Below, one piece after another: positions 35,583-64,000 of a DNA stretch of 64,000 nucleotides; position 1 is the stretch's first letter, and each line of letters begins with the position of its first letter. The notes below the pieces were generated by a model, which saw only the letters and a list, made by a program, of their open reading frames with translations, made no database searches and was not told the DNA's origin. The stretch is from Escherichia coli (GTDB lineage: Bacteria > Pseudomonadota > Gammaproteobacteria > Enterobacterales > Enterobacteriaceae). The position numbers and the translations under genes were made by a program. The stretch is taken from the NCBI RefSeq assembly GCF_003991155.1, contig NZ_CP031293.1, one strand, 5' to 3'.

Positions 35583-35676
35583 GGTGGTCATTCTGGTGGT
35601 CTTGACAATCTCGATTTTTTGTTTTAGCTTACCAATCAGCCAGTTAATGGCTACGGCGATCCCAGTCAGAGGAGCC
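35583..35676 (+). repeat. Island-end repeat copy 1, ending in the tRNA-Asn 3'-terminal 15-mer
   Basis: ~94 bp near-identical to 48837..48930 and to the reverse complement of 63231..63325; ends CCAGTCAGAGGAGCC, matching the tRNA-Asn acceptor/T-arm 3' end. Confidence 0.8.
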
Positions 35677-35682
35677 CAATTT

Positions 35683-35714
35683 CTGAAAAACCCGCTTTTA
35701 TAGCGGGCTTTTCG
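35683..35714 (-). terminator. Terminator downstream of cbl
   Basis: GCCCGCT-ATAAAAG-AGCGGGT hairpin followed by T-run on the minus strand. Confidence 0.5.
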
Positions 35715-36665: not shown

Positions 36666-36766
36666 GGTAAACTCCGGGCAGTTCAGATATCCCGTTATTG
36701 TTAAAGTCTAATGCCCGGCATAACAAATAATAAAAACCCGCATCTTATTCCATCCCGATATAACGC

Positions 36767-37684
36767 TTAGCTCACCAATTGCCACTGCCTTTTTTCCATC
36801 ACTGGAGAATTCATCACTGACATTAACAACTCTTTCACTGCTTGCGCCTGTGGTGATAAGTTCGCTCTGGCGGGTAAATTTAATGACAAAGAGAGACTCA
36901 TGGAAGGAGTGGTAATGCGTGACATCCAACCATTTACTGCGCCACATAACGAACGCGCGGCCGATTCGGGTAATACTGCAACGCCCATGCCGCTGGCAAT
37001 CGCTGCGGTAAGCGTGGCAATAGACTCAATTTCACCAATGACTTTTGCCGTGAGTCGCCGTAGGGAAAAAGCCTCATCAACACGAAGTCTAATAGCACTG
37101 TAATCACTTGGGAGAAAAAGGTTCATTTGCGCAATAGCATTAACATCAACGCTTTGCCCCGGGCAATCTTGAGTTCCTACCAGAAAAAGATCTTCTTTCA
37201 GTAAAGCCTGACTGGATACACCAGCCACAGGGGAATGCTCATAAATCACCGCCATATCGAGTTGGTGATTTATCAGTTTTTCGTTAAGTACTGCACCGCT
37301 ATTTTCATGAAGATAAATAACGACCTCCGGGAATTCAGCGCGAACCGCCTGTAATAAGGGCATGGTGATGGATGACGCAGCGGTTCCTGGCGCAAAGCCA
37401 ATCGAGACTTGCCCCGATAATGCCTGACCAACGTTATGCACCGCCAGTTGGGCCTGCTCACACTGACGTAAAATGGCCCGCGCATGGGTATAGAGAATTT
37501 TTCCGGCGTCAGTTGGCGTAACACCCCGTTTTGTGCGAATCAAAAGTTGTTGATTTAACTCACCTTCCAGTGTGGCAACCTGCTGACTGAGCGCTGGTTG
37601 TGCGATATGCAATACTTCAGCAGCCTGGGTCAGGCTACCAATATCTACAATTTTTACGAAGTATTTCAGGCGTCTGAAGTTCAT
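36767..37684 (-). CDS. nac: LysR-family nitrogen assimilation control protein Nac
   Basis: Start MNFRRLKYFVKIVDIGSLTQAAEVLHIAQPALSQQ at 37684 (305 aa); recognised as Nac. Confidence 0.9.
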   Translation of the reverse strand: MNFRRLKYFVKIVDIGSLTQAAEVLHIAQPALSQQVATLEGELNQQLLIRTKRGVTPTDAGKILYTHARAILRQCEQAQLAVHNVGQALSGQVSIGFAPGTAASSITMPLLQAVRAEFPEVVIYLHENSGAVLNEKLINHQLDMAVIYEHSPVAGVSSQALLKEDLFLVGTQDCPGQSVDVNAIAQMNLFLPSDYSAIRLRVDEAFSLRRLTAKVIGEIESIATLTAAIASGMGVAVLPESAARSLCGAVNGWMSRITTPSMSLSLSLNLPARANLSPQAQAVKELLMSVMNSPVMEKRQWQLVS

Positions 37685-37738
37685 GTTGCCTCCGGTTTTT
37701 AAGAATCGGCCCAAGTGCCGCCATTACTTACAACCAGA

Positions 37739-37754
37739 TTGCAAGATGCTTGCC
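37739..37754 (-). promoter_or_regulatory. sigma54 (-24/-12) promoter for nac
   Basis: Minus-strand TGGCAAGCATCTTGCA matches TGGCAC-N5-TTGCA with correct GG-to-GC spacing, ~55 nt upstream of the nac start. Confidence 0.6.
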
Positions 37755-37870
37755 AGTTTTATTTTGGCGTTGATGTACAAGCTAACCAACTGTCAAATAA
37801 GAGATTATGATAGTTTTGTCACTCGATCTTTTTATTAGAACTCGCGTTCTCTGCCCCAAGACATAAAGGT

Positions 37871-37887
37871 ATGCACCACGATGGTTC
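37871..37887. promoter_or_regulatory. Putative NtrC enhancer half-palindrome upstream of nac
   Basis: TGCACCACGATGGTTCA resembles the TGCACC-N5-GGTGCA NtrC site consensus. Confidence 0.3.
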
Positions 37888-38008
37888 ATTACCAAAAAGA
37901 TTGAAAGCTCACCATTTTGTCGAAATTGGCAGCAAACAAACAAAAAAATGCATTTCACCCTTTGACATCACCATGCACTGCCATTAATATGCGCCCCGTT
38001 CACACGAT

Positions 38009-38084
38009 TCCTCTGTAGTTCAGTCGGTAGAACGGCGGACTGTTAATCCGTATGTCACTGGTTCGAGTCCAGTCAGAGGAGCCA
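38009..38084 (+). tRNA. asnV: tRNA-Asn (anticodon GTT)
   Basis: 76 nt TCCTCTGTAGTTCAGTCGGTAGAACGGCGGACTGTTAATCCGTATGTCACTGGTTCGAGTCCAGTCAGAGGAGCCA; cloverleaf consistent, anticodon GTT at 38042..38044; gene symbol inferred from position next to nac. Confidence 0.9.
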
Positions 38085-38250
38085 AATTTTAGTCTTGAGA
38101 CATCTCTATAAGTCTCAGGATAGTTAAAAAACAAGAACTTATCTTTACCCGGTTGTCTCGCAAGAGGCTGCTGGGTTTCTTGACATCCATAGTTTTTAGG
38201 GGCCTAATCAGGGGCCTCACGGTTCGGTGAGCAAACGGAGCCCCCACGCT

Positions 38251-39513
38251 ATGGCATTAACAGACACCGCTATTCGCAAGACTAAACCCTCTGACAAACC
38301 CTTCAAAATGACGGACAGTTCTGGACTGTACCTGTTGATCAAACCTAACGGCTCAAAACTCTGGTATATGAAGTACCGCATCGACGGCAAAGAGAAGAAA
38401 CTGGCCTTTGGCCCCTACCCGGAGATCTCCCTGTTGCAGGCTCGCCGCCTGCGCGAAACAGCACGCAATAACATTCATGCAGGCGTCGATCCGGCTGCGG
38501 TGAAGCAAACCGAGAAACAGAAGAGGAAAAACGGGCAGACGTTCAGCCAGATCGCCATCAACTGGCATAGCGAGCATAAACGCTGGTCTGAGCATTACGC
38601 GAAAACGGTTATGCGCAGGCTGGAAATGTACGTTTTCCCGGATATCGGGGATCGCCTTATCGAGGAGATCGAAACGGAGGATTTGTTATTCACGTTGCGC
38701 AAGGTAGAGAGTAAAGGCTTTCTGGAAATCACCGCGCGGCTGAAAAACTACGTCACCGATATCATGCACTACGCGATGAAAAAGAAACTGCTCAAAGCGA
38801 ACCCGGCGCTGTATCTGGACGGTGAGTTTGCCGCGCCAGAAACCAGTCACTACCCGGCCCTGTCGCTGGACAAATTGCCTGAGCTTTTAACCCGGACGGA
38901 TAGCTACTGCGGCAGGCTGCTGACAAAATACGCGCTTAAGCTGTCGCTGATTTTTTTTGTGCGCTCCAGCGAACTACGCTTTGCGCGCTGGAGTGAGATC
39001 GACTGGCAGCAGAAGTTATGGATAATCCCGGAAGAGCGCGAACAGATCGAAAACGTGCGCTTCTCTTACCGGGGGTCGAAAATGAAAATCCAGCACATTG
39101 TGCCGCTGTCGGATCAGGCGATTGCGATACTGAAACAGATCGAGGCCCTCTCCGGGCATCTGGCCTTTATTTTTCCCGGCGAATACGACCAGGACAAGTG
39201 CATGAGCGACAACACCGTCAACAAGGCGCTGCGCGTGATGGGTTACGACACCAAAAAGGATATCTGCGGGCATGGCTTCCGGGCAATGGCCTGTAGTGCG
39301 CTGAGCGAATCGGGATTATGGAGCAAAGAAGCCATTGAAAAGCAGATGAGCCACCAGGAAAGAAACAGCGTCCGTGCTGCCTATATTCACAAGGCTGAAT
39401 ATCTGGAGGAACGGATCGAGATGATGCAGTGGTGGTCAGATTATCTTGATGCAAACAGTGACGGGTATGTCTCGGCTTACCAGTATGCCCGCCGCCTAAA
39501 ACAGGCGTCGTAA
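38251..39513 (+). CDS. int: P4-like tyrosine integrase
   Basis: ORF 38227..39513; probable start MALTDTAIRKTKP at 38251; phage-integrase family features; lies directly 3' of the tRNA. Confidence 0.85.
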   Translation: MALTDTAIRKTKPSDKPFKMTDSSGLYLLIKPNGSKLWYMKYRIDGKEKKLAFGPYPEISLLQARRLRETARNNIHAGVDPAAVKQTEKQKRKNGQTFSQIAINWHSEHKRWSEHYAKTVMRRLEMYVFPDIGDRLIEEIETEDLLFTLRKVESKGFLEITARLKNYVTDIMHYAMKKKLLKANPALYLDGEFAAPETSHYPALSLDKLPELLTRTDSYCGRLLTKYALKLSLIFFVRSSELRFARWSEIDWQQKLWIIPEEREQIENVRFSYRGSKMKIQHIVPLSDQAIAILKQIEALSGHLAFIFPGEYDQDKCMSDNTVNKALRVMGYDTKKDICGHGFRAMACSALSESGLWSKEAIEKQMSHQERNSVRAAYIHKAEYLEERIEMMQWWSDYLDANSDGYVSAYQYARRLKQAS

Positions 39514-39636
39514 GTTAACAAAGCATCAGAGGGGGAAAAGGTATATTCCCCCTTTGTGCGTTTCAAATGTCGATGCTGACTGTAGCTTTTAAACTAAATT
39601 ACTGGATAAAAAGTAGCTTTTAAGCTACTATCTTTT

Positions 39637-39954
39637 ATGAAAACGATAAAGACCTACATAACTGCCGACGGGCGAGATCTGTATGCAGAGTTTTTTAAAG
39701 GGTTACGCGACCCCATCGCGAAGGCAAAGATCGCTTCCCGGATCAACCGGATGGCTTCGGACAATTTTGGCGACCATAAGCCCTGCCGGGAAGGTGTCTG
39801 GGAACTCAGGATAGATCAAGGGGCTGGGTATCGGGTTTATTACAGCCTGGTGGATGGAGAAGTCGTCCTGTTGATTCTGGCTGGCGACAAGCGTACGCAG
39901 GATGCAGATATAGATGAGGCTATTCGCTGCCTCAAAGACTATTTGAAGAGGTGA
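39637..39954 (+). CDS. RelE/ParE-superfamily toxin, HigB-like
   Basis: 105 aa; 3 nt before the antitoxin-like gene; toxin-first order typical of HigBA. Confidence 0.6.
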   Translation: MKTIKTYITADGRDLYAEFFKGLRDPIAKAKIASRINRMASDNFGDHKPCREGVWELRIDQGAGYRVYYSLVDGEVVLLILAGDKRTQDADIDEAIRCLKDYLKR

Positions 39955-39957
39955 TGT

Positions 39958-40266
39958 ATGGCGAAAGAACGTTTATATGATGATGTCATGGTGGAAGCGC
40001 TCCGGGAAGATCCTGCTTTTGCTCAGGCCTATCTGCATCAGGCATTTCTGGATATGGATGAAGATGGCGGTCAGGAAGCTTTTTTACTCGCGTTACGCCA
40101 TGTTGTTGAAGCGCGGGGAGGAATGGCGACGGTTGCCCAGAAAGCCGGTGTATCGCGTGAATCACTGTACCGCACGCTCTCCCCGACCGGCAACCCGACA
40201 CTGAAAACACTCCGCAGCGTCGTCCACGCCGCAGGTTTTCAGTTCTCTGCGCTGGCAAGTGCCTGA
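39958..40266 (+). CDS. HigA-like antitoxin (HTH)
   Basis: 102 aa; sequence resembles addiction-module antidote proteins (GVSRESLYRTLSPTGNPTLKTL helix-turn-helix region). Confidence 0.6.
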   Translation: MAKERLYDDVMVEALREDPAFAQAYLHQAFLDMDEDGGQEAFLLALRHVVEARGGMATVAQKAGVSRESLYRTLSPTGNPTLKTLRSVVHAAGFQFSALASA

Positions 40267-40388
40267 GTAGTTTTACATTTTGCAGCGATAATATAAATTG
40301 TAAATCATAATCCCTCCGTTGCTCTGTTCTGAGCAACGGATTACTTTGCATATTATCTGCTTTGCTAATCCATCAATTTTTAATTACC

Positions 40389-40682
40389 TTACATGGAAGC
40401 AACATACTCCATTAAATTATCTAATAAAAAATCAACCTTACTTATACCTTCATTTACATTATCGGCATAGATAAGTTCTACGAGCTTCATCCAACTTAAA
40501 TTGGAACGTACATTGTATTGTAAAAGGAGCCACTCTCTAAATCCCTCTAACATTTTACCGTCAAAGGAAAAATCCATCCCTAGTATAAAAGCCACAGTGT
40601 TTTCATAGTTATTTTCAAGTAGATACATATCGATATGCTTCTTAAAAAAAACAATTTTTTTTAGGAGGATATTTTTATTCAT
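40389..40682 (-). CDS. Putative immunity protein for orphan rhs toxin
   Basis: 97 aa, start 3 nt after the toxin stop, AT-rich. Confidence 0.5.
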   Translation of the reverse strand: MNKNILLKKIVFFKKHIDMYLLENNYENTVAFILGMDFSFDGKMLEGFREWLLLQYNVRSNLSWMKLVELIYADNVNEGISKVDFLLDNLMEYVASM

Positions 40683-40684
40683 AA

Positions 40685-41400
40685 TTAAAATCCAAAATTG
40701 ATTGCATCAGGATATTGCCATAACTCTTTATATTCTTGTAATGGTAAACCGTCTGAGCCAGTAAAGGCATCATAAACCCGACCATCTTTTACTACAACGT
40801 CGTGATATGCCCAACCGGGATTCGTGCCTCTGTATTTACCTAATGAAGGAGCTCCGAAATCAGGTCTAATTCTTGCAATATCACCACCGATTTTCTTTTG
40901 TACCCACAATGCAAAATCTTCACAACCATTCCAGTTCTCAGAATTTTTAATATCCGCAGCCTTCCATACACAATCAGCGTTAAGGCCTAATGGATCAATC
41001 CAATTTAACGGATCTTTGACGTAACTGTATGGATTAATACCTCCCAACACCCCGGTTGGATCTGCCGAAATATACTGCGCAGTATCAGGATCATAGTACC
41101 GGAACCGGTTATAGTACAGTCCTGATTCGGCATCTTCATACTGCCCCGGAAAACGCAGGCGGCAGTCAGGTGCATCATCCCTGTTCCTGCCTTCTTCCCG
41201 GCCCCAGAGCTGTTGTTTTCCCCGCCAGACAATGGTGCCGCCCTCGGTCAGCAGTTCCTGGACACGGCCGACCGTATCCGTCACCGCGTAATGCAACAAG
41301 CCTTTCTCATAACGCGCCAGCGGTGTAAAACTTCCCGGTTCGTATATCCAGCGGATGGCGTTTTCATCATCTGGCTTGCCGTCCTGGCTGACCGGAATTT
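40685..41400 (-). CDS. Orphan rhs C-terminal cassette with Cys/His/Asp-containing toxin tip
   Basis: ORF 40685..41299, rhs-core similarity extends to ~41400; DPLGL motif then a unique ~95 aa C-terminus. Confidence 0.7.
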
Positions 41401-41442
41401 CTTGGTTAGATGACCGTCAGTTAAATGGATATTATCATTCCA

Positions 41443-41784
41443 TTAAAAATCGGAATGATCCATATATTCTATATGCTCATCAGAAAGTCCATCTGGATAT
41501 AACTCTCTTGGATAATCACTATCTAAAATTGCTAGGAAGTTATTTATAGTATTTTCCAATGCCTCATCTACTGTTTTTCCCCAGCCAATAGCACCTTCGG
41601 GACAATCATCAAATTTCCGTTTAATCATTACATTTGTAATCCCCATGTAACTCCCATCCTGAGACTCTCGTATTTTTATTTTTACTTTTGCGCTAGGGAT
41701 AACACCAAACATCCAAATTACAAACTCGGCTTCAACTTTCTCTACTTTAGATACACTGCGTATTTTCATTTGATGCCAGCCCAT
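41443..41784 (-). CDS. Putative immunity protein for Rhs2 toxin
   Basis: ATG start MGWHQMKIRSV at 41784 with AGAGGA RBS, 11 nt after the Rhs2 stop. Confidence 0.5.
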   Translation of the reverse strand: MGWHQMKIRSVSKVEKVEAEFVIWMFGVIPSAKVKIKIRESQDGSYMGITNVMIKRKFDDCPEGAIGWGKTVDEALENTINNFLAILDSDYPRELYPDGLSDEHIEYMDHSDF

Positions 41785-41794
41785 ATCTTTTCCT

Positions 41795-44700
41795 CTATAA
41801 ACGACCAAAAGAGACAATTTCCCCTGTATCTACCGCAACATCAATATATCTTCCGTTCTTTCTATATCTCCACACATTTTCAGTATAACCAGAAACTTTG
41901 GTTGGTTTTATTCTTCTCAAGTTCTCAGAAAAAACCTTAGCTTTATTTAGATATTGCTCTACCGTTTCTGCACCAACTTCACGACCATGTTTTCTGAAGT
42001 GCTCCAGTAATGACTCTGCCGGAGTATCCCAACTTCCTTTACTCCATAGTTTTTTACAATTTACTTCTTGCAGGAATGCAAATAATGCCGATAAACCTAA
42101 AGGGTCAATATAACTAAATGGGTTCTGTACATATGAATATGGATTTAATCCCCCAAGTAACCCAATGGGATCTGCCGAAATATACTGCGCCGTATCAGGA
42201 TCATAGTACCTGAACCGGTTATAGTACAGTCCTGATTCCGTATCTTCGTACTGCCCCGGAAAACGCAGGCGGCAGTCAGGCGCATCATCCTTGTTTCTGC
42301 CTTCTTCCCGGCCCCAAAGTTGCTGTTTTCCCCGCCAGACAATCGTGCCGTCTTCGGTCAGCAACTCCTGGACACGACCGACCGTATCCGTCACCGCGTA
42401 ATGCAGCAAGCCTTTCTCATAACGTGCCAGCGGTGTAAAACTTCCCGGTTCATATATCCAGCGAATGGCATTTTCATATTCTGGTTTGCCATCAGTACCA
42501 ACAGGAATTTCTTCGGTTAACTGATCGCCATTCCAGTGGAAATCCATTCCGGACTTATCACGGTTGGTACACCGTTTGCTGATGCGCCTGCCAAACGGGT
42601 CGTATTTATACTCCCAGCGTTCCCCCTCCGGCGTTTCAAGCCCGGTAAGCTGACTTCTGGCATCCCAGCGATAGCGCCATTCGAGCGGACGATAGCCGCC
42701 TTTATCGACCAGTTTCTCCACCAGGCGACCATTAGCATCGTACGTCCAGGTAATATTGTGCTCATTCACCACCCGGACAAATTTTCCCTCTTCCGGCTTT
42801 CCTGTGTCCGGGTTGATGCGGTGTGTCTGATGCCGCCAGCCTTTGTGCTCTCTGGAAACAACTCTTCCATGCCGCAACTGCTGGTGTGTCTCGCTTTCCA
42901 GCACCTCATTTACCCATGTCTGGCGGCGGGCAATATTCAGGTTTTTGTCATAAGTGAACAGTTCCTCACACAGCGGAAACTCCCGGGAATCGCCCGTCCA
43001 GGTGGCATGGCTTACCTGGTCGTTAACCGTCATATTGTTGAAGGCTGATCCCCGCAGCGAGTCTGATATTACCGTCAGGTTGTACGCCTTGTCATACAGC
43101 CACTGGCGCTCCAGGCTTTTGTTCCGTTCGTACGGCCCGGCCTGGTGGTCCCCGGCATTCTGCTTCGCTGGCATCCCTGTGCGCGTGTATGCCAGCGTCT
43201 GGTAAAACCCGGCCTCGCTCCGCCTGGACGTTTCCAGGCCGCGCAGGTCGTGCTCAAATGTCAGCGGGGCATGGTCCGCTATCTGCCAGGATGCCAGATG
43301 CCCCATCAGGTTTCGGGTAAAGCGTTCTGTGATACCTGCTGTGGTGCGCTGTGTGACCGTATCCAGGTCAGGGTCGTAACGGTATTCTGTGCGCCTGCCG
43401 TTCAGCGTTTCGGCAACAATCTGGTTTGCATCGTTATATTCAAATGTAACGGTGGCATCGTCATTCTTCGCTTCCACCAGACGACGCTGCGTGTCGTAAC
43501 GAAATGTGGTGACACTCAGAGTTCGGTCACTGTTGCCCTGTGTGACTTCCTCGTCCGTCACCTGGTCATTCACGTTGTAGCGGCGGTTAAGGTGAGTGCC
43601 GTCCGGGAAGCTGGTGCGAATACAACGCCCGACGGCATCGTAGGTGTAGTTCAGCGTGCGTCCGGTGAAGTCTGTTTCTGCTACAAGCTGCCCGGCTTTA
43701 TCATATTTAAGACGGTAGCGCTCGCCTTCGGCGTTGGTAATTTCGGTCAGGCGGGTCAGTTTATCGTAGCGACACGCCAGCCGCTCGCCGTCAGGACGCA
43801 CCAGAGCCGTGAGCAGATCGAATGCACCGTATTCGTAACGGGTGGTTTTGCCCTCGCCATCGGTAAAGCTTTCCGGTAGCTTTTCGCTGTTCTGGCGCAT
43901 CAGTTCCCGCACGCCGTCCGGGCGCTGGATTTCTTCCACGCAGCCCTGTGGCCCGGCGTGGATTTTGCTGTGACGAAACTGCGTGGTGAAGCCAAGTGGG
44001 TCTTTCACACTTAACAGTCGGCCCAGCATATCCTGTTCGGTCTGCGTGATGCCGCCGTCTGGCGCAACAGTCTCGCGCACCTGATGCAGGGCGTCATGAC
44101 TCCAGCACCAGGTGGCCCCGCCCGGCAGAATCCGTGCAAGCAAATCACCCTGTTCACTGTAGCTGAACTGCTGTTTCCGGCCCTGAGGGTCGATCAGGCT
44201 GATTATGCTGCCCCGATCATCATAGACCCATTGCCACGCCTGATTATCAGTTGTCGACAGCCGGGTTAACTGACCGGTATCATTATACTCGTAGAACAGG
44301 CCATAGCCGCCCGGCAGGGCAACCTGGATAACCTCACCTTCCCGGTTATAGCGGTACGCCGTGGTACGCCCCAGCGCATCGGTGCGTGACTGAAGCCGGG
44401 CATTATTCCAGACGGTAATTTCTTCCCGCCCCAGCGGATCGATACAGCGGGTGACCAGGCCGTCCTCGTTATACCAGTAACGGGTTTCGCCCCCTTCTGC
44501 ATCCAGGTAGGTGGTGCATTTTTCATCATCGTTATAGATAAAGCGGTCATCGAAGTAGCCTTCCGTTGACAGTGTGCTGACAGCGCGCCCCTGCGGATCA
44601 TAGCGGATATCCACACAGGTTTTGTCCGTATCCCGCCAGCGGGTCATAAAGCCTTCTGATGTGTACTCATGCCATAAATGCGAGAACTGGAAGGTATCGC

Positions 44701-45985
44701 ATTCTGCCATAAAACCATTGTCATCATACTGGCAGGTCACAAGACGCTGACGCTGCGGCGTTGCCAGGTCAATGCTCATCAGCTGAGCCTGTTGCCAGGC
44801 AAGGGCGAGCATATAGCCATCGCTGTGACGGATTTCTGTCAGCAGACCATCAGTGCGGATAAAATCAATCCGGTTGCCATAATTATCGAAGACAGCGGAC
44901 AACCGCCAGACGCCATTGCCTGCCGGGGAAAAGAGCTGTGTCTGCTGCGAACGGCGATCGAAAACGCTCACGCCATCGCGCAGGCTTCCCGTCAGCCGGT
45001 AGTACGCCTGGCGTGAGTTCACTGCACCGCGAAAGATACCGTCCTGCGGCAGGCGGTAATACAGTACAACGCCTTCACTGTCGGTAAAATGCAGCCGGTT
45101 ACCCTGTATCGTCAGCGACGCTGACCACTCATCGGTCCATTTCGGGCCGAAAATCCCGGTCCCCCTGGCCTGTGAGCGGTAAAAACGCGAGAGCGTCAGC
45201 GGCAGGGAACCCGGCAGCGAAAGCACGCTGAAATGCTGGAGAAAATCGCCGGTGCCAATATCCACAGGCTCACCGGGTTTGGTGCACAACTGAGCACCAA
45301 CACATTTACTCTGATCACCAGTTCCCTCGGTTTCACCTTTAATATTTGCGCCATCCTGGCCTTCGGGTATGACATCATCCGCCAACTTTTCTGCGTCACT
45401 GACAACATCGTCTGCTTTGTTTACCTTCAGCAGATCGGCGGTGAATTTCCCCGCCGCTGCTTCTTCTCGTGCCAGTTTACTGGCAGTCCGCATCGCTCTA
45501 AGACCCACGAACCCGCCTCGGGCCAGACCATATCCTCCCAGCGCCAGCGAGCCATGGTCATAAATCATGCCGCCAATTTCCTGGTTCCTGTTGCTCATTT
45601 CCAGACGGTACATGTCCAGATTGAAATCTCCCGCATGCTCCCGGAGATCTCCGCCCATGTTGTACATATCCTCGCCAATATCATCCATGCCCATCGCAGA
45701 AAGCATGGCGCCGTTCATCTGCATTTCTCCGGCATACTGCATGGTGGCCCCCTGGCCTATCATCGTCGCCATATCCGGGAACTGGTTCCAGAATGCTTTG
45801 GCAGCACCAATAGCCAAATCAAGCTGGACTGCCGAAGCTTCAATTTTCGCCCGACTTTCATCCATCTGGATCATCAACATCATGTCCCAGATACTTTGCT
45901 CTTCTTTTGTTTCTGGCTCTGGCGCAGGGTCAGCTTCGCTGGCGGAAATAGCGGCTTCAGGGGGCTGACCGATAATTAAACCCGT
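41795..45985 (-). CDS. rhs: Rhs repeat effector 2, 5'-truncated by the IS3-family element
   Basis: ORF 41795..45883; frame stays open upstream to the IS end (~45985) and encodes ...GLIIGQPPEAAISASEADPAPEPETKEE, matching the linker after the PAAR domain of Rhs1; YD repeats; DPIGLLGGLNPYSYVQNPFSYIDPLGL then a unique C-terminus. Confidence 0.85.
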   Translation of the reverse strand, partial: TGLIIGQPPEAAISASEADPAPEPETKEEQSIWDMMLMIQMDESRAKIEASAVQLDLAIGAAKAFWNQFPDMATMIGQGATMQYAGEMQMNGAMLSAMGMDDIGEDMYNMGGDLREHAGDFNLDMYRLEMSNRNQEIGGMIYDHGSLALGGYGLARGGFVGLRAMRTASKLAREEAAAGKFTADLLKVNKADDVVSDAEKLADDVIPEGQDGANIKGETEGTGDQSKCVGAQLCTKPGEPVDIGTGDFLQHFSVLSLPGSLPLTLSRFYRSQARGTGIFGPKWTDEWSASLTIQGNRLHFTDSEGVVLYYRLPQDGIFRGAVNSRQAYYRLTGSLRDGVSVFDRRSQQTQLFSPAGNGVWRLSAVFDNYGNRIDFIRTDGLLTEIRHSDGYMLALAWQQAQLMSIDLATPQRQRLVTCQYDDNGFMAECDTFQFSHLWHEYTSEGFMTRWRDTDKTCVDIRYDPQGRAVSTLSTEGYFDDRFIYNDDEKCTTYLDAEGGETRYWYNEDGLVTRCIDPLGREEITVWNNARLQSRTDALGRTTAYRYNREGEVIQVALPGGYGLFYEYNDTGQLTRLSTTDNQAWQWVYDDRGSIISLIDPQGRKQQFSYSEQGDLLARILPGGATWCWSHDALHQVRETVAPDGGITQTEQDMLGRLLSVKDPLGFTTQFRHSKIHAGPQGCVEEIQRPDGVRELMRQNSEKLPESFTDGEGKTTRYEYGAFDLLTALVRPDGERLACRYDKLTRLTEITNAEGERYRLKYDKAGQLVAETDFTGRTLNYTYDAVGRCIRTSFPDGTHLNRRYNVNDQVTDEEVTQGNSDRTLSVTTFRYDTQRRLVEAKNDDATVTFEYNDANQIVAETLNGRRTEYRYDPDLDTVTQRTTAGITERFTRNLMGHLASWQIADHAPLTFEHDLRGLETSRRSEAGFYQTLAYTRTGMPAKQNAGDHQAGPYERNKSLERQWLYDKAYNLTVISDSLRGSAFNNMTVNDQVSHATWTGDSREFPLCEELFTYDKNLNIARRQTWVNEVLESETHQQLRHGRVVSREHKGWRHQTHRINPDTGKPEEGKFVRVVNEHNITWTYDANGRLVEKLVDKGGYRPLEWRYRWDARSQLTGLETPEGERWEYKYDPFGRRISKRCTNRDKSGMDFHWNGDQLTEEIPVGTDGKPEYENAIRWIYEPGSFTPLARYEKGLLHYAVTDTVGRVQELLTEDGTIVWRGKQQLWGREEGRNKDDAPDCRLRFPGQYEDTESGLYYNRFRYYDPDTAQYISADPIGLLGGLNPYSYVQNPFSYIDPLGLSALFAFLQEVNCKKLWSKGSWDTPAESLLEHFRKHGREVGAETVEQYLNKAKVFSENLRRIKPTKVSGYTENVWRYRKNGRYIDVAVDTGEIVSFGRL

Positions 45986-45992
45986 CGTATTA

Positions 45993-47244
<1,252 letters not shown>

Positions 47245-47493
47245 CCACTACACATAGCAAGGGGAAAAGGTGGATGGGAGCCAACTAAGTTACAAAATTT
47301 TGATCCTGAATTTGGCAGAAAACTACAAGCAATAAATAACGCGTTAAGGAATGGACGGATAGAATTTGCTCATGCACAGGTTTTTTTACGCAATGATGGC
47401 TCTGTTAATGCTGCAGTAGGCATTGGTAGCGGAATACAGTGGAATACCTGGTAATAATAGTATGTGTATATAACGAATAAAGGAGTCCATTTT

Positions 47494-48426
47494 ATGGCAG
47501 CAAGCAAAACAAAAAACAGACTGGAAAAAATGCTTCCTCGCGTTTATAGCTGGGCACAGAGCGGCAGCCAATCAGTAACCGCCCCTGAGTTTAACTATAT
47601 GGAACAATATATTAATGGTCAATCTGAACTTTTCATGGCATTAATTCATTTATATGGACTTGGCATGAGTGAAGCTGCATTAAGCTTACTGGAAGCCAAA
47701 CAGTCTATGGCTTCTTCTGTTATCCATATGAGTTATGGATTCTCTCGAATGCTTCATTCTGATGGCATTAATATATTGAGTTTAAAAGAAAGCAAGGCAA
47801 CTATTACTTCAGGCTTGGATTTCGTCACACATAGTATGCTTGGAGCAATTGCGCTGGGTATGCCCGCTCTGACGAAAAAATTTCACCAGATTGTTTTTAC
47901 TGCTCTTGAGAAAGGGTATGGCATTGTAAATGCGCATGAAGATCCTGGCCCAGAAACTTTACGCTATGCTGCTATGGGACTTTCCATCATTAATGACTGG
48001 CTACAGATCCCCCTGGATTTAGATAAGCTGGGACTGCCACGCGATCCGGCCTGGGGGCTTCTGGTCAAACACTGGAATAACCCTGATCCCGTTAAATTAC
48101 AATCGGTTCTGTATGATGCCTGTGATATCCATATAGAACGTATCGCGTTAACAGAACGTGAAGTTTATACCGGTAACTTTGAATTTGGCTCTCCGTTTGA
48201 AGCCGTTCACCCAACAGAGATTCTGGCGGTATTGCGCCTGAGAGACATGCTGAATCTGCCCAATCCGACATTAGACCATCCGCTGATGAACACACCTTAT
48301 GCCCAAATCACCACCACTCCGGGCCAGGTCACTCAGCCGGACAGTCTGCTAGAAACCTTTCTGGCTAAGGCCCGTGAACGGGATCCAGAGGTCATGGCCG
48401 AATGGGATCGGGTTCAGGTGGATTAA
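47494..48426 (+). CDS. Hypothetical protein (possible immunity or adaptor)
   Basis: ORF 47464..48426; probable start MAASKTKNRLEK at 47494 with AAAGGAG RBS; no family recognised. Confidence 0.5.
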   Translation: MAASKTKNRLEKMLPRVYSWAQSGSQSVTAPEFNYMEQYINGQSELFMALIHLYGLGMSEAALSLLEAKQSMASSVIHMSYGFSRMLHSDGINILSLKESKATITSGLDFVTHSMLGAIALGMPALTKKFHQIVFTALEKGYGIVNAHEDPGPETLRYAAMGLSIINDWLQIPLDLDKLGLPRDPAWGLLVKHWNNPDPVKLQSVLYDACDIHIERIALTEREVYTGNFEFGSPFEAVHPTEILAVLRLRDMLNLPNPTLDHPLMNTPYAQITTTPGQVTQPDSLLETFLAKARERDPEVMAEWDRVQVD

Positions 48427-48453
48427 TTTGGTACTGGATACAAAGGATAGATA

Positions 48454-48717
48454 ATGAAACCATTAATAACGCTTGGGGATAAAACATCTCATGGTGGTGT
48501 TGTAATTAGTGCCAGTGCAAATTTTTTGCATGAGGGACAGCCTGTCGCCTGTGATGGTGACCAGGTAACTTGTCCGATAGAAGGCCATGGGCCAGCAAAA
48601 ATCATAGCATCTGGACAGGGGTTTTCTATAAATGGGAAACAGGCTGCACATGATGGCGATAAAACAACCTGTGGGGCAACGCTGATAGCCAGTCATTTTA
48701 TTGTGCGTCATAAGTAA
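48454..48717 (+). CDS. Stand-alone PAAR-domain protein
   Basis: 87 aa with three PAAR-like motifs (LGDKTSHGG; CDGDQVTC; HDGDKTTCG). Confidence 0.8.
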   Translation: MKPLITLGDKTSHGGVVISASANFLHEGQPVACDGDQVTCPIEGHGPAKIIASGQGFSINGKQAAHDGDKTTCGATLIASHFIVRHK

Positions 48718-48836
48718 CTAATACCAAAATAACTCTATGATTAAAAAGGCTGATATATATGCTGGAAGTAGACAGACTACCGGAAACAGTACGACGGTGA
48801 CAGGGTGAACCAAAGGGTTAGGCGCATTTTAAAAAG

Positions 48837-48930
48837 GTGGTCATTCTGGTGGTCTTGACAAACTCGATTTTTTGTTTTAGCTTATCAATCAGCCTGTTAA
48901 AGGCTAAGGCGATCCCAGTCAGAGGAGCAA
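48837..48930 (+). repeat. Island-end repeat copy 2 with tRNA-Asn 3'-end 14-mer (probable attR of the asnV island)
   Basis: Near-identical to 35583..35676; ends CCAGTCAGAGGAGC (one mismatch to the tRNA 3' end after that). Confidence 0.8.
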
Positions 48931-60268: not shown

Positions 60269-61723
60269 ATGAATAATAAGGGCTCCGGTCTGACCCCAGC
60301 TCAGGCACTGGATAAACTCGACGCGCTGTATGAGCAATCTGTAGTCGCATTACGCAACGCCATTGGCAAATATATTAGAAGTGGCGAATTACCTGATGAA
60401 AACGCCCGCAAACAAGGTCTTTTTGTCTATCCATCACTGACCGTAACCTGGGACGGTAGCACAACCAATCCCCCCAAAACGCGCGCATTTGGTCGTTTTA
60501 CTCACGCAGGCAGCTACACCACCACGATTACTCGCCCTACTCTCTTTCGTTCGTATCTTAATGAACAACTTACGTTGCTGTATCAGGATTATGGTGCGCA
60601 TATCTCGGTGCAACCCTCGCAGCATGAAATCCCTTATCCTTATGTCATCGATGGCTCTGAATTGACACTTGATCGCTCAATGAGCGCTGGGTTAACTCGC
60701 TACTTCCCGACAACAGAACTGGCGCAAATTGGCGATGAAACTGCAGACGGCATTTATCATCCAACTGAATTCTCCCCGCTATCGCATTTTGATGCGCGCC
60801 GCGTCGATTTTTCCCTCGCGCGGTTGCGCCATTATACCGGTACGCCAGTTGAACATTTTCAGCCGTTCGTCTTGTTTACCAACTACACACGTTATGTGGA
60901 TGAATTCGTTCGTTGGGGATGCAGCCAGATCCTCGATCCTGATAGTCCCTACATTGCCCTTTCTTGTGCTGGCGGGAACTGGATCACCGCCGAAACCGAA
61001 GCGCCAGAAGAAGCCATTTCCGACCTTGCATGGAAAAAACACCAGATGCCAGCATGGCATTTAATTACCGCCGATGGTCAGGGTATTACTCTGGTGAATA
61101 TTGGCGTGGGACCGTCAAATGCTAAAACCATCTGCGATCATCTGGCGGTGCTACGCCCGGATGTCTGGTTGATGATTGGTCACTGTGGTGGCTTACGTGA
61201 AAGCCAGGCCATTGGAGATTATGTACTTGCACACGCTTATTTACGCGATGACCACGTTCTTGATGCGGTACTGCCGCCCGATATTCCTATTCCGAGCATT
61301 GCTGAAGTGCAACGTGCGCTTTATGACGCTACCAAGTTAGTCAGCGGCAGGCCCGGAGAGGAAGTTAAACAGAGGCTACGTACTGGCACTGTGGTAACCA
61401 CAGATGACAGGAACTGGGAATTACGTTACTCAGCTTCTGCACTTCGTTTTAACTTAAGCCGGGCCGTAGCAATTGATATGGAAAGTGCAACCATTGCCGC
61501 GCAAGGATATCGTTTCCGCGTGCCATACGGGACACTACTGTGTGTTTCAGATAAACCGTTGCATGGTGAGATTAAACTTCCCGGTCAGGCTAACCGTTTT
61601 TATGAAGGCGCTATTTCCGAACACCTGCAAATTGGCATTCGGGCGATCGATTTGCTGCGCGCAGAAGGCGACCGACTGCATTCACGTAAATTACGAACCT
61701 TTAATGAACCGCCGTTCCGGTAA
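60269..61723 (+). CDS. amn: AMP nucleosidase
   Basis: Start MNNKGSGLTPAQALDKLDALYEQ at 60269 with AGGAG RBS (484 aa); recognised as Amn. Confidence 0.9.
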   Translation: MNNKGSGLTPAQALDKLDALYEQSVVALRNAIGKYIRSGELPDENARKQGLFVYPSLTVTWDGSTTNPPKTRAFGRFTHAGSYTTTITRPTLFRSYLNEQLTLLYQDYGAHISVQPSQHEIPYPYVIDGSELTLDRSMSAGLTRYFPTTELAQIGDETADGIYHPTEFSPLSHFDARRVDFSLARLRHYTGTPVEHFQPFVLFTNYTRYVDEFVRWGCSQILDPDSPYIALSCAGGNWITAETEAPEEAISDLAWKKHQMPAWHLITADGQGITLVNIGVGPSNAKTICDHLAVLRPDVWLMIGHCGGLRESQAIGDYVLAHAYLRDDHVLDAVLPPDIPIPSIAEVQRALYDATKLVSGRPGEEVKQRLRTGTVVTTDDRNWELRYSASALRFNLSRAVAIDMESATIAAQGYRFRVPYGTLLCVSDKPLHGEIKLPGQANRFYEGAISEHLQIGIRAIDLLRAEGDRLHSRKLRTFNEPPFR

Positions 61724-61782
61724 TAAGTTCTGTTCCTTTTTATCAGGAATAGATGTGAAGGATTTAGTAAGTCATCCAGCAA

Positions 61783-61808
61783 ATAGCCTGCAATAAAGCA
61801 GGCTGTTT
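61783..61808 (+). terminator. Rho-independent terminator after amn
   Basis: AGCCTGC-AATAAA-GCAGGCT hairpin followed by T-rich tail. Confidence 0.6.
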
Positions 61809-62064
61809 GCTTCCTGGGGCGGATACGAGTTTTATTATAGCCTTAATGATTTCCATATATTAAAAGCAAGTATGCTTTCAAAACACAATTATAAAAAAAT
61901 CCGCCAACGACATTAGTTTTTATGAGATTAAATATAATATTATGGCTTTAGAATATTTTTATTTCTAATAGACGAGATTTTTCCTGTTATGATATAATAT
62001 GCCGAATTAACACATGTTAACGATTTACCAGTAATGTAAATAAATTTTCGAGGAGATCATTCCA

Positions 62065-62781
62065 GTGGGACGTAAATGGGCCAATATTGTTGCTAAAAAA
62101 ACGGCTAAAGACGGTGCAACGTCTAAAATTTATGCAAAATTCGGTGTAGAAATCTATGCTGCTGCTAAACAAGGTGAACCCGATCCAGAATTAAACACAT
62201 CTTTAAAATTCGTTATTGAACGAGCAAAGCAGGCACAAGTTCCAAAGCATGTTATTGATAAAGCAATTGATAAAGCCAAAGGCGGCGGAGATGAAACGTT
62301 CGTGCAGGGCCGTTATGAAGGCTTTGGTCCTAATGGCTCAATGATTATCGCCGAGACCTTGACTTCAAATGTTAACCGTACGATTGCTAACGTTCGCACA
62401 ATTTTCAATAAAAAAGGCGGCAATATCGGAGCGGCAGGTTCTGTCAGCTATATGTTTGACAATACGGGTGTGATTGTATTTAAAGGAACAGACCCTGACC
62501 ATATTTTTGAAATTTTACTTGAAGCTGAAGTTGATGTTCGTGATGTGACTGAAGAAGAAGGTAATATTGTTATTTATACTGAACCTACTGACCTTCATAA
62601 AGGAATCGCGGCTCTAAAAGCAGCTGGAATCACTGAGTTCTCAACAACAGAATTAGAAATGATTGCTCAATCTGAAGTTGAGCTTTCCCCAGAAGATTTA
62701 GAAATCTTTGAAGGGCTTGTTGATGCCCTTGAAGATGACGACGATGTTCAAAAAGTTTATCATAACGTCGCAAATCTCTAA
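62065..62781 (+). CDS. yeeN: YebC/PmpR-family transcriptional regulator YeeN
   Basis: 238 aa; GTG start with GAGGAG RBS; recognised as YeeN. Confidence 0.85.
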
Positions 62782-62793
62782 TTATATTTTAAA

Positions 62794-62823
62794 GAAATCT
62801 GTCTTTATGGCAGATTTCTTTAA
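62794..62823 (+). terminator. Rho-independent terminator after yeeN
   Basis: AGAAATCTG-loop-CAGATTTCT followed by TTTAAT. Confidence 0.6.
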
Positions 62824-62839
62824 TCTCATATAATTCTTA

Positions 62840-63130
62840 TAAAGAATATAATATCCAGCTCGTCATATTGATTATAAAACCCACGCTCCCAGAGAAATAA
62901 TATTTATTAAAATTCCAGGCCTTCTTTTTCTGATTACAGAAGGCAAAGTGGCAATTACGTATAGTTTCCCGATAAAGACGTGACAGCAACATCCCGCATA
63001 AGGCATTTTTCTCTTTATCTTTGTACGGTGCTTCATGGAACAGAGTTTTTGACCTTGCGAATCGTGATGTCTGTTGGGGGGCAATTTGCTCACTGAAGCG
63101 TGAGACTCGATTAAGCACACGAAACACAGA
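62840..63130 (-). pseudogene. Decayed integrase 5' remnant next to the tRNA-flank sequence
   Basis: Reverse complement of 62990..63228 resembles the asnV-to-int leader and the first int codons (ttcagtgagcaaattgcccccca / acagacatcacgattcgcaaggtc vs ttcggtgagcaaacggagccccca / acagacaccgctattcgcaagact); frame broken. Confidence 0.4.
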
Positions 63131-63230
63131 AATCAAAAAACCCGGTCACTTTTTTACAAGGTAACCGGGTAAAAATGATTTTATTTTTTAACTGTCTTGA
63201 GACTCATAGAGATGTCTCAAAACTAAAATT

Positions 63231-63325
63231 TGGCTCCTCTGACTGGGATCGCCGTAGCCTTTAACAGGCTGATTGATAAGCTAAAACAAAAAATCGAGTT
63301 TGTCAAGACCACCAGACTGACCACC
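63231..63325 (-). repeat. Island-end repeat copy 3 with truncated tRNA-Asn 3' end (pseudo-tRNA / attR)
   Basis: Reverse complement matches copies 1 and 2; 63231..63246 is the tRNA 3' 16-mer; it is followed on the minus strand by the same flank that follows asnV (aattttagt[c/t]ttgagacatctc). Confidence 0.8.
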
Positions 63326-63496
63326 ATTTTTATTAGCGTATATTTTCGCTATGGGCATACTGTCTATTCATTTAACACATGCACGTCTTATTAGAGCGAA
63401 AAGTGTACATTTCAAAAATGCTTTAATAGGATTTCTAGCTATGATGCTAAAGTATCACTACTTTTATGGATATAAACTAGACAGGAATGATGTGTT

Positions 63497-64000
63497 ATGA
63501 AGTCCAGATTTGGACCAAATGGGGTGCATTTATTCGACCGAAATACAGGTCTGAACGTCCTCCTGGAGGAGTTACGCCCAAAGGAATCTGTTTGGTCCAT
63601 TTCTCCACGCCAGGTCTCGATTGCACTTACCAATCTTTGTGACCTTCGCTGCGCACATTGTTTTGCGCCCAAGCATAAGGCATTGCTACATACTGACCAA
63701 GTGCTTACTTGGTTAAAAGAACTGGATACTGAAGGATGCCTCGGTATCGGATTTGGTGGTGGAGAACCAACACTGCATCCTGATTTCGTCGAAATATGTA
63801 AACGGGCTGCTGGGGAAACTCATCTTGCAGTCACATTTACGACTCATGGTCACCGTCTGACCCAGCCATTGGTTAAAAAACTCAAAGGCTCGATCCACTT
63901 TGCGCGCATTAGCGTTGACGGGATAGGTCATACCTACGAAGAACAACGTGGAAGGCAGTTTTCAAGTTTACTCAGAGGCATTGAGTCGATCGCGAAATTG
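63497..64000 (+). CDS. Radical SAM domain protein, N-terminal part (continues beyond window end)
   Basis: ATG at 63497; frame open to the window end; CDLRCAHC (CxxxCxxC) cluster motif and GGGEP glycine-rich motif. Confidence 0.65.
   Translation, partial: MKSRFGPNGVHLFDRNTGLNVLLEELRPKESVWSISPRQVSIALTNLCDLRCAHCFAPKHKALLHTDQVLTWLKELDTEGCLGIGFGGGEPTLHPDFVEICKRAAGETHLAVTFTTHGHRLTQPLVKKLKGSIHFARISVDGIGHTYEEQRGRQFSSLLRGIESIAKL

What the first reader, a model, noticed from the sequence alone, without database searches (positions are those of the whole stretch)
62840..64000. Integrase remnant and truncated tRNA-Asn followed by the start of a radical SAM gene
Between yeeN and the window end lie a decayed integrase 5' fragment, the inverted island-end repeat with the tRNA 3' 16-mer, and then a radical SAM ORF (CDLRCAHC and GGGEP motifs) running off the window. 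The repeat orientation implies that the radical SAM gene is the terminal gene of another tRNA-Asn-associated island, so tandem island accretion and decay have occurred here. Radical SAM enzymes in islands can belong to peptide-maturation or antiviral systems, but the partial gene cannot be classified.
Basis: partly seen in the sequence, partly recalled or inferred. Interest (0 to 1): 0.4.

Follow-up and report, generated by a model that had tools for sequence, protein, structure and literature searches.

The report
Island edge carrying known Avs2 antiphage operon
This stretch is the far edge of an 18-kb genomic island inserted in the E. coli tRNA gene asnW, and the radical SAM gene that runs off the window is avap1, the first gene of the three-gene Avap1-Avap2-Avs2 antiphage operon described in Klebsiella in 2024, so it is real but ordinary.

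Summary

- **tRNA fragment.** 63231-63246 is the last 16 nt of tRNA-Asn, reverse-complemented, at the position where K-12 asnW begins. It is part of a 20-nt direct repeat whose partner lies 18 kb away at the intact asnW.
- **Integrase remnant.** The 450 bp between yeeN and this repeat is core E. coli DNA, about 95% identical to K-12. Its tRNA-proximal 190 nt is 80% identical to the spacer plus first 14 codons of a P4-type integrase gene beside another tRNA-Asn in the window. So a small integrase 5' fossil exists. It is detectable in DNA but not in protein searches.
- **Radical SAM ORF.** The ORF from 63497 is the first gene of a radical SAM, DUF6375 and 1352-aa STAND NTPase operon. I read the rest in a genome that differs from the window at 2 of 21,219 positions.

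The three proteins are 94%, 98% and 96% identical to Klebsiella pneumoniae proteins of the same lengths. They match the KpAvs2 operon (Avap1-Avap2-Avs2) of Bechon et al. 2024, an abortive-infection antiphage system. Only 25 of 5426 complete E. coli genomes carry the operon.

The biochemical role of Avap1 is still open.

The parts
62065..62781 (+). yeeN (YebC/PmpR family regulator). Core gene that marks the chromosomal flank.
   Evidence: ORF; annotated yeeN in STEFF_1 and K-12.
62782..63226 (.). Core yeeN-asnW intergenic region, present in essentially all E. coli.
   Evidence: Aligns with K-12 over its whole length with few differences. 5421 of 5426 genomes match part of the query 62782-64000. 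No Pfam hit in any frame and no Rfam hit above gathering score.
63041..63230 (-). Fossil of the tRNA-proximal end of an older island. It comprises the tRNA-to-integrase spacer and integrase codons about 4-14 (coding part about 63041-63075), with the start codon deleted.
   Evidence: 151 of 188 nt identical to window 38085-38293, score 115 against a shuffle maximum of 29. K-12 has the same stub (score 116). The K-12 asnU and asnV flanks do not (scores 16-20) (alignment).
63006..63036 (-). Possible second integrase fragment (codons about 40-50), colinear with the first after a deletion of about 74 nt.
   Evidence: 24 of 31 identical to 38368-38399; 12 of 300 shuffles score as high, so this is marginal.
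63227..63246 (-). 20-nt direct repeat at the distal end of the asnW island. 63231-63246 is the last 16 nt of tRNA-Asn.
   Evidence: The partner repeat is at the 3' end of intact asnW, 18 kb away (L001 38485-38500).
63247..63332 (.). Island-end arm of about 85 bp, shared with other islands that carry different cargo.
   Evidence: About 90% identical in strain LH85-a, where an Rhs/TPR island follows. Found in 142 of 5426 genomes, whereas the sequence beyond it is found in only 23.
63333..63496 (+). Cassette-specific upstream region of avap1, with AGGA 10 nt before the ATG. A weak promoter-like site at 63317-63344 overlaps its start.
   Evidence: Sequence. Promoter scan found 4 sites against 2.3 expected, which is not significant. 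The region occurs only in the 23 genomes that carry this copy.
63497..64000 (+). avap1, codons 1-168 of 305. This is the radical SAM protein of the Avap1-Avap2-Avs2 antiphage operon. CxxxCxxC is at 63638-63661 and the GGE motif at 63755-63769.
   Evidence: Full gene and operon in L001. 94% identical to the K. pneumoniae protein. Operon described in PMC11564622.

Best explanation
The interval is the distal junction of an ~18-kb genomic island integrated into the 3' end of the tRNA gene asnW.

Shown here:
- Integration duplicated 20 nt, including the last 16 nt of the tRNA. It moved the intact asnW, with the island's now-inactivated P4-type integrase, 18 kb away.
- The duplicate lies next to the old chromosomal flank. 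That flank already held the stub of an earlier island: the spacer plus the first codons of an integrase gene.
- The first cargo gene inside the new island is avap1. It is followed by avap2 (DUF6375, start overlapping the avap1 stop by 4 nt) and a 1352-aa Avs2-type STAND NTPase.

Inferred from experiments on the Klebsiella operon (KpAvs2; Bechon et al. 2024); Klebsiella proteins 94-98% identical to these were found here, but the KpAvs2 sequence itself was not available:
- The C-terminal sensor of Avs2 binds a phage protein (large terminase, Ksap1 or Ksap2).
- The NTPase domain (Walker A lysine K337) drives activation.
- The N-terminal Mrr-like nuclease (K71) degrades DNA, so the infected cell stops growing before phage are released (abortive infection).
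- Avap2 binds Avs2 constitutively and is needed for defence.
- Avap1 is needed against some phages (T2) but not others (SECphi18).

The chemistry of Avap1 is unknown.
For: Island structure:
- The window and STEFF_1 differ at 2 of 21,219 nt.
- Repeats lie at L001 20450-20465 and 38485-38500. The integrase pseudogene has an internal stop and lies next to asnW, followed by yeeO.
- K-12 has asnW exactly where the 16-mer lies.

Operon identity:
- Pfam gives Radical_SAM and DUF6375 (E 9e-60).
- PADLOC gives Avs2 at E 7.5e-116.
- The solved Avs2 structure 9o4e matches at E 2e-36.
- K71 and K337 are present and the length is 1352 aa, as in KpAvs2.
- The proteins are 96%, 94% and 98% identical to K. 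pneumoniae proteins.
- The published description of the three-gene operon and its phenotypes is PMC11564622.

Conservation of the cassette:
- The same gene order is found in Xanthomonas, Burkholderia and Dickeya.
- It is found in 74 of 74 species-representative loci with enough downstream DNA.
- Two of these loci (L070, L074) are genomes shown in the paper's Fig. 1B.

Sporadic distribution: 25 of 5426 E. coli genomes.
Against: - Only the first 168 codons of avap1 are in the window. The rest of the operon is read from a near-identical genome, not from the window's own source.
- The NCBIfam Avs2 equivalog model scores 276 bits against a cut-off of 1000. This is a divergent Avs2 subfamily, not the type Avs2.
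- I could not obtain the exact KpAvs2 sequence, because no supplements are held. Identity to the tested protein is inferred from Klebsiella proteins in the same 90% cluster.
- No expression or phage data exist for this E. coli copy, and 2 of the 25 carrier genomes have IS100 inserted in the Avs2 gene.
Confidence: 0.9

Rival explanations
1. The radical SAM protein is a prokaryotic viperin (pVip) that makes chain-terminating ddh-nucleotides, with the STAND protein as an unrelated neighbour.
Against: - The hits cover only the generic radical SAM core (profile positions 2-150 of 257).
- The NF038283 score is 58.5 against a cut-off of 180.
- Bechon et al. detected no pVip-type nucleotides and saw no NTP pocket in their model.
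- The gene is always followed by DUF6375 and Avs2, in 74 of 74 loci.
Confidence: 0.04
2. The radical SAM gene belongs to a peptide natural-product (RiPP) maturation cluster carried by the island.
For: The closest solved structures by sequence and by fold are the RiPP maturases SkfB, SuiB and PqqE. The best NCBIfam hit is the mycofactocin maturase core.
Against: - Only the three cluster cysteines are conserved, so there is no SPASM or twitch auxiliary cluster.
- All family-specific NCBIfam scores are far below their cut-offs.
- No precursor-peptide, transporter or protease genes were seen in any of the loci inspected. The invariable neighbours are DUF6375 and a STAND NTPase.
Confidence: 0.03
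3. The integrase-like stretch in the yeeN-asnW spacer is not an island fossil. It is only a flank that was copied together with a tRNA-Asn gene during duplication of the asn tRNA genes, or it is chance similarity.
For: Protein-level tests are not significant. Only about 11 codons are clearly recognisable. The asn tRNA genes in this region do recombine: the cbl-nac module is relocated in this strain.
Against: - The DNA similarity runs for 190-209 nt at 80% identity, far above shuffles, and continues across the integrase start into the reading frame.
- The K-12 asnU and asnV downstream flanks share none of it (scores 16-20).
- A copied flank containing an integrase 5' end would still derive from an island.
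Confidence: 0.1
4. The radical SAM gene is a conserved core-genome gene with no island features.
For: None found.
Against: It is present in 25 of 5426 complete E. coli genomes. It is flanked by tRNA-derived direct repeats with an integrase at the other end. K-12 has asnW directly at this position.
Confidence: 0.01

Closest known systems
KpAvs2 operon (Avap1-Avap2-Avs2) of Klebsiella pneumoniae S_15PV, Bechon et al. 2024, Nat Commun 15:9860 (PMC11564622)
   Same: - Same three genes in the same order.
- A radical SAM protein, a DUF6375 protein and a 1352-aa protein with an Mrr-like nuclease, a STAND NTPase and a C-terminal sensor.
- K71 and K337 at the positions mutated in the paper.
- 94%, 98% and 96% identity to K. 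pneumoniae proteins of identical length.
   Different: - The host is E. coli.
- The location is the distal end of an asnW island.
- This copy has not been tested.
- The exact sequence of the tested KpAvs2 was not available for comparison.
Single-gene Avs2 (AVAST type 2; for example EcAvs2, PDB 9o4e)
   Same: STAND NTPase with a terminase-sensing type of C-terminal domain. PADLOC Avs2 E 7.5e-116 and 9o4e E 2e-36 over residues 331-964.
   Different: - The NCBIfam Avs2 equivalog score is far below its cut-off (276 against 1000).
- It has two accessory genes.
- According to the paper it gives only weak defence on its own.
Prokaryotic viperins (pVip)
   Different: It fails the viperin family cut-off. 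No ddh-nucleotides were reported for the ortholog. It is always coupled to DUF6375 and a STAND protein.
RiPP radical SAM maturases SkfB and SuiB
   Different: No auxiliary Fe-S cysteines and no precursor peptide gene. A protein substrate is only a hypothesis.
tRNA-Asn-associated islands of E. coli with P4-type integrases, such as the pks island at asnW and the HPI at asnT (from general knowledge, not tested here)
   Same: Integration at the 3' end of an asn tRNA gene, short direct repeats derived from the tRNA, and an integrase adjacent to the tRNA.
   Different: - The cargo is Rhs/T6SS fragments, toxin-antitoxin genes and the Avs2 operon.
- The integrase is a pseudogene.
- The island is only 18 kb.

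Membership tests
Radical SAM superfamily (PF04055) | CxxxCxxC motif that binds the [4Fe-4S] cluster | tested here: met
   C48, C52 and C55 (CDLRCAHC, nt 63638-63661) are invariant in 42 diverse homologs.
Radical SAM superfamily (PF04055) | Pfam score above the gathering threshold, and the GGE SAM-binding motif | tested here: met
   57.3 bits against 29.5. G88, G89 and E90 are invariant.
Avap1 of the KpAvs2-type operon | Radical SAM gene immediately upstream of a DUF6375 (Avap2) gene and an Avs2 gene, on the same strand | tested here: met
   L001 20716-21633, 21630-22037 and 22052-26110. The same order is found in 74 of 74 loci from other species. This lies outside the window and was read from a genome differing at 2 of 21,219 nt.
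Avap1 of the KpAvs2-type operon | Close sequence relationship to the Klebsiella proteins | tested here: met
   94% (Avap1), 98% (Avap2) and 96% (Avs2) identity to K. pneumoniae proteins of equal length.
Avap1 of the KpAvs2-type operon | Confers phage resistance by abortive infection | not testable with these tools
   Shown only for the Klebsiella operon expressed in E. coli.
Avs2 (AVAST type 2) | Match to Avs2 profiles | tested here: inconclusive
   PADLOC Avs2 E 7.5e-116 over residues 2-963 and PDB 9o4e E 2e-36. NCBIfam NF041813 gives 276 bits against a cut-off of 1000. It belongs to the broad Avs2 family but not to the curated equivalog.
Avs2 (AVAST type 2) | Walker A lysine of the STAND NTPase and an N-terminal nuclease lysine | tested here: met
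   GEGKS with K337, and QCK with K71. The N-terminus matches the Avs4 nuclease N-terminus at E 5.7e-5.
Prokaryotic viperin (pVip) | Score above the viperin family cut-off, with coverage of the C-terminal nucleotide-binding part | tested here: not met
   NF038283 gives 58.5 against 180. The PADLOC pVip hit covers profile positions 2-150 of 257 only.
Prokaryotic viperin (pVip) | Produces 3'-deoxy-3',4'-didehydro nucleotides | not testable with these tools
   Reported as not detected for the Klebsiella operon.
SPASM/twitch radical SAM peptide maturases | C-terminal cysteine-rich motif that binds auxiliary Fe-S cluster(s) | tested here: not met
   Only C48, C52 and C55 are conserved among 42 homologs.
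SPASM/twitch radical SAM peptide maturases | Overall fold similarity | tested here: met
tRNA-integrated genomic island | Direct repeats derived from the tRNA 3' end at both ends, with the integrase next to the intact tRNA | tested here: met
   20-nt repeats 18,035 nt apart. The P4-type integrase gene is at L001 37061-38323 but has an internal stop.
tRNA-integrated genomic island | Sporadic presence, with an empty site in other strains | tested here: met
   23 of 5426 genomes carry this configuration. K-12 shows the empty site.

The most novel reading that the evidence does not exclude
Avap1 may be a protein-modifying radical SAM enzyme rather than a small-molecule synthase. Its substrate would be the invariant, probably flexible N-terminal tail of Avap2 (MKIWxGYGSEHSxNLVxIGxF) or Avs2 itself. 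In that reading the Avap1-Avap2 pair is a portable regulatory module that can be attached to different effectors.

Leads:
- The best structural matches of Avap1 are the RiPP maturases SkfB and SuiB.
- avap1 and avap2 overlap by 4 nt and co-occur in every locus examined.
- The pair also occurs in reversed order next to a membrane Macro-like protein and an ART toxin domain, with no STAND gene within 4.6 kb (L011).
- The first 15 residues of Avap2 are its most conserved part (mean 0.87; W4, H11, S12, G19 and F21 invariant in 84 sequences, including the STAND-less variant).
- Those first 12 residues fall in a low-confidence stretch of the fusion model that also includes the artificial linker.

Against:
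- A linker-fused AlphaFold2 model gave no confident complex (pTM 0.62).
- Avap1 is dispensable for defence against SECphi18 although Avap2 is required.
Probability: 0.15. Interest if true: 0.6.

Novelty: already known. Interest (0 to 1): 0.2.

Why it matters
It matters little beyond annotation.

- The E. coli genes currently labelled 'radical SAM protein', 'DUF6375 family protein' and 'hypothetical' or 'NACHT domain-containing protein' can be named avap1, avap2 and an Avs2-type sensor.
- asnW can be added to the places where E. coli keeps defence cargo.
- The unannotated integrase stub in the K-12 yeeN-asnW spacer shows that asnW has been used repeatedly as an integration site.

The remaining scientific question is what Avap1 does chemically. 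That question belongs to the whole Avap1 family and is not made easier by this particular locus.

Tried and rejected
1. **Protein-level search for the integrase remnant.** None of these was significant: tblastn with two P4-type integrases, Smith-Waterman per frame with shuffles, and Pfam on all six frames. Only the DNA alignment to another tRNA-integrase junction showed the remnant.
2. **Rfam on 61700-64000.** Nothing came near a gathering score.
3. **Promoter and terminator scan of 62700-63600.** Four promoter-like sites against 2.3 expected, and no terminators.
4. **Obtaining the KpAvs2 sequence from the paper.** No supplements are held. I used Klebsiella members of the same 90% cluster instead.
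5. **Later papers mentioning KpAvs2.** They say nothing about the accessory genes.
6. **Viperin, SPASM maturase, MoaA and other named radical SAM subfamilies.** All scores are far below the curated cut-offs.
7. **The first genome scan.** The 42-sequence alignment had no stretch conserved enough to search with. I repeated it with 11 closer sequences.
8. **Avap1-linker-Avap2 fusion modelled with AlphaFold2 on 27 paired sequences.** pTM was 0.62, so no confident complex. This is a crude test and counts as inconclusive-to-negative.
9. **DUF6375 against solved structures.** No relative was found.

Full report
**What is in the sequence**

The window is E. coli chromosome. shiA, amn and yeeN end at 62781.

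One tRNA gene is predicted in the window, tRNA-Asn at 38009-38084 on the + strand. Its last 16 nt recur in reverse complement at 63231-63246. With up to one mismatch the 16-mer occurs four times in the window and never in 100 shuffles.

An ORF opens at 63497 and is still open at 64000. It contains CDLRCAHC (aa 48-55) and GGGEP (aa 87-91).

**The spacer between yeeN and the repeat is core DNA that holds a small integrase fossil**

In K-12, yeeN is followed after 452 bp by asnW on the minus strand. The window's 62782-63246 aligns with that K-12 stretch with few differences, up to and including the first 16 nt of asnW. After that the two sequences diverge.

I first tested the 'integrase remnant' at protein level, with no significant result:
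- tblastn with two P4-type integrases gave E values of 0.1-2, and 24 of 100 shuffles did as well.
- Per-frame Smith-Waterman scores were unremarkable.
- Pfam found nothing in six frames.

The best local match, however, was TDITIRKVKNS against the integrase N-terminus TDTAIRKTKPS, so I compared DNA. The reverse complement of 63230..63041 aligns with 38085-38293. That target is the 166-nt spacer after the tRNA-Asn at 38009 plus the first 14 codons of the integrase gene starting at 38251. The alignment has 151 of 188 positions identical and scores 115 against a maximum of 29 in 200 shuffles. About 12 nt including the ATG are deleted.

K-12 carries the same stub (score 116). The downstream flanks of K-12 asnU and asnV do not (scores 16-20). 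A second colinear piece, 63036-63006 against integrase codons about 40-50, is marginal.

It is the fossil of an earlier element at asnW.

**The repeat marks the far end of a younger island**

The 1219 nt from 62782 to 64000 are 100% identical in 23 of 5426 complete E. coli genomes. One of them, STEFF_1 (locus L001), differs from the window at 2 of 21,219 shared positions, so I used it to read downstream.

The 16-mer, which is part of a 20-nt repeat AATTTGGCTCCTCTGACTGG, recurs 18,035 nt further on as the 3' end of the intact asnW, followed by yeeO. Between the repeats lie:
- the radical SAM gene, a DUF6375 gene and a 1352-aa gene;
- Rhs fragments, an IS3 element and a DUF2169 fragment;
- small regulator and antitoxin genes;
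- an integrase-domain gene;
- next to the tRNA, a P4-type integrase gene with an internal stop.

The first ~85 bp inside the repeat are shared with other islands carrying different cargo. This arm is present in 142 genomes. The sequence from about 63333 onward occurs only in the 23 genomes with this copy.

**What the radical SAM gene is**

Full length, it encodes 305 aa and scores above the Pfam Radical_SAM threshold. The next gene, which overlaps it by 4 nt, is DUF6375 at E 9e-60.

The third protein matches:
- PADLOC Avs2 models at E 7.5e-116;
- the solved Avs2 structure 9o4e at E 2e-36;
- the Avs4 nuclease N-terminus weakly, over its first ~118 residues.

A text search for DUF6375 led to Bechon et al. 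2024 (PMC11564622). They describe exactly this operon in Klebsiella pneumoniae: Avap1 (radical SAM), Avap2 (DUF6375) and KpAvs2 (1352 aa, comprising an Mrr-like nuclease, a STAND NTPase and a C-terminal sensor). Their findings are:
- The operon protects E. coli by abortive infection with DNA degradation.
- K71A and K337A abolish defence.
- Avap2 binds Avs2 and is required.
- Avap1 is needed against T2 but not SECphi18.
- No viperin-type nucleotides were found.

The E. coli protein has lysines at positions 71 and 337 and the same length. The three E. coli proteins fall in the same 90% clusters as K. pneumoniae proteins and are 96%, 94% and 98% identical to them.

The cassette is conserved in Xanthomonas, Burkholderia and Dickeya, where it sits beside a CBASS system. 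A scan of one genome per species found 173 genomes with a relative. Of the best 80 loci, all 74 with enough downstream DNA have the order radical SAM, DUF6375, Avs2-like. The other six are cut by contig ends. Two of those loci are genomes pictured in the paper.

In E. coli the operon is rare, in 25 of 5426 genomes. Two of those copies are interrupted by IS100.

**Subfamily of the radical SAM protein**

All curated subfamily models score far below their cut-offs, including viperin at 58.5 against 180. The PADLOC pVip hit covers only the generic core.

Across 42 homologs down to 25% identity, only the three cluster cysteines are conserved, so there is no SPASM or twitch auxiliary cluster. Additional invariant positions are G18, P37, T115, T116, R137 and S139.

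This suggests, but does not show, a peptide or protein substrate. A linker fusion of Avap1 and Avap2 modelled on 27 paired sequences gave pTM 0.62, so no confident complex was predicted.

The most conserved part of Avap2 is its N-terminal 15 residues. The Avap2-Avap1 pair also occurs, in reversed order, next to Macro-like and ART-toxin genes with no STAND gene in the remaining 4.6 kb of the contig downstream. These are leads for the function of Avap1, which the held literature leaves open.

**Verdict**

The gene can be classified as avap1 of the published Avs2 operon. The feature is already known, and interest is low.

Noticed in passing
window 35662-38084; L001 38661-41219; L002 (K-12): The cbl-nac module sits left of the tRNA-Asn at 38009, whereas in K-12 it lies between asnU and asnV. 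In STEFF_1, yeeO is followed by a tRNA-Asn and then directly by ldtA. This fits excision of cbl-nac by recombination between asn tRNA genes and re-insertion at asnT. A one-mismatch copy of the tRNA 3' 16-mer at 35662-35677 lies 38 bp from the cbl 3' end, the same distance as from asnU in K-12.
   Followed up: partly
window 1-35677 (L008 1-35448): A complete type VI secretion gene cluster (tssA-M, Hcp, VgrG, PAAR/Rhs effectors and immunity genes, ISAs1 copies) ends at the degenerate tRNA-Asn repeat at 35662. It looks like a large island at another asn tRNA gene.
   Followed up: no
window 38085-48930: A second tRNA-Asn island of about 10.8 kb. It has an apparently intact P4-type integrase (38251-39513), a RelE/ParE toxin-antitoxin pair, Rhs fragments, IS3 and a PAAR gene. 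It ends at a one-mismatch copy of the 16-mer at 48915-48930, just before yeeJ.
   Followed up: partly
H31 (NZ_CP195049.1) and H51 (NZ_CP024826.1): In two of the 25 E. coli genomes with the operon, an IS100 (istA/istB) is inserted within the operon region. The Avs2 gene is annotated there as two hypothetical proteins, so the system is probably inactivated.
   Followed up: no
L011 1790-4486; L012: A divergent pair (33% identity to Avap1) has the order DUF6375 then radical SAM. It is followed by a 293-aa membrane protein with a weak ThsA_Macro hit and a 128-aa Tox-ART-HYD1 protein. There is no STAND NTPase in the remaining 4.6 kb, so the pair may work with other effectors.
   Followed up: partly
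Avap2 (L001 21630-22037), residues 1-21: The N-terminal motif MKIWxGYGSEHSxNLVxIGxF is the most conserved part of DUF6375. W4, H11, S12, G19 and F21 are invariant in 84 sequences. The first 12 residues fall in a low-confidence stretch of the fusion model that also includes the linker.
   Followed up: partly
L007 732-5044: In Dickeya oryzae the operon lies next to a CBASS system (SMODS cyclase, E1-like ThiF, JAB, SAVED effector) and a PIN-domain gene. This is a typical defence island.
   Followed up: no
L001 27484-28008 (minus strand): A 174-aa island protein with a DGRHR motif reminiscent of ParB/sulfiredoxin-like domains. It has no hit in Pfam, NCBIfam or PADLOC. It sits beside a 171-aa protein downstream of an Rhs toxin fragment.
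   Followed up: no
Avap1 family: The whole cassette is unusually uniform across distant hosts. Avap1 is 79-88%, Avap2 74-82% and Avs2 about 77% identical between E. coli and Xanthomonas, Burkholderia and Dickeya. The C-terminal sensor part is the least conserved, at 70-72%. This points to recent horizontal spread.
   Followed up: partly
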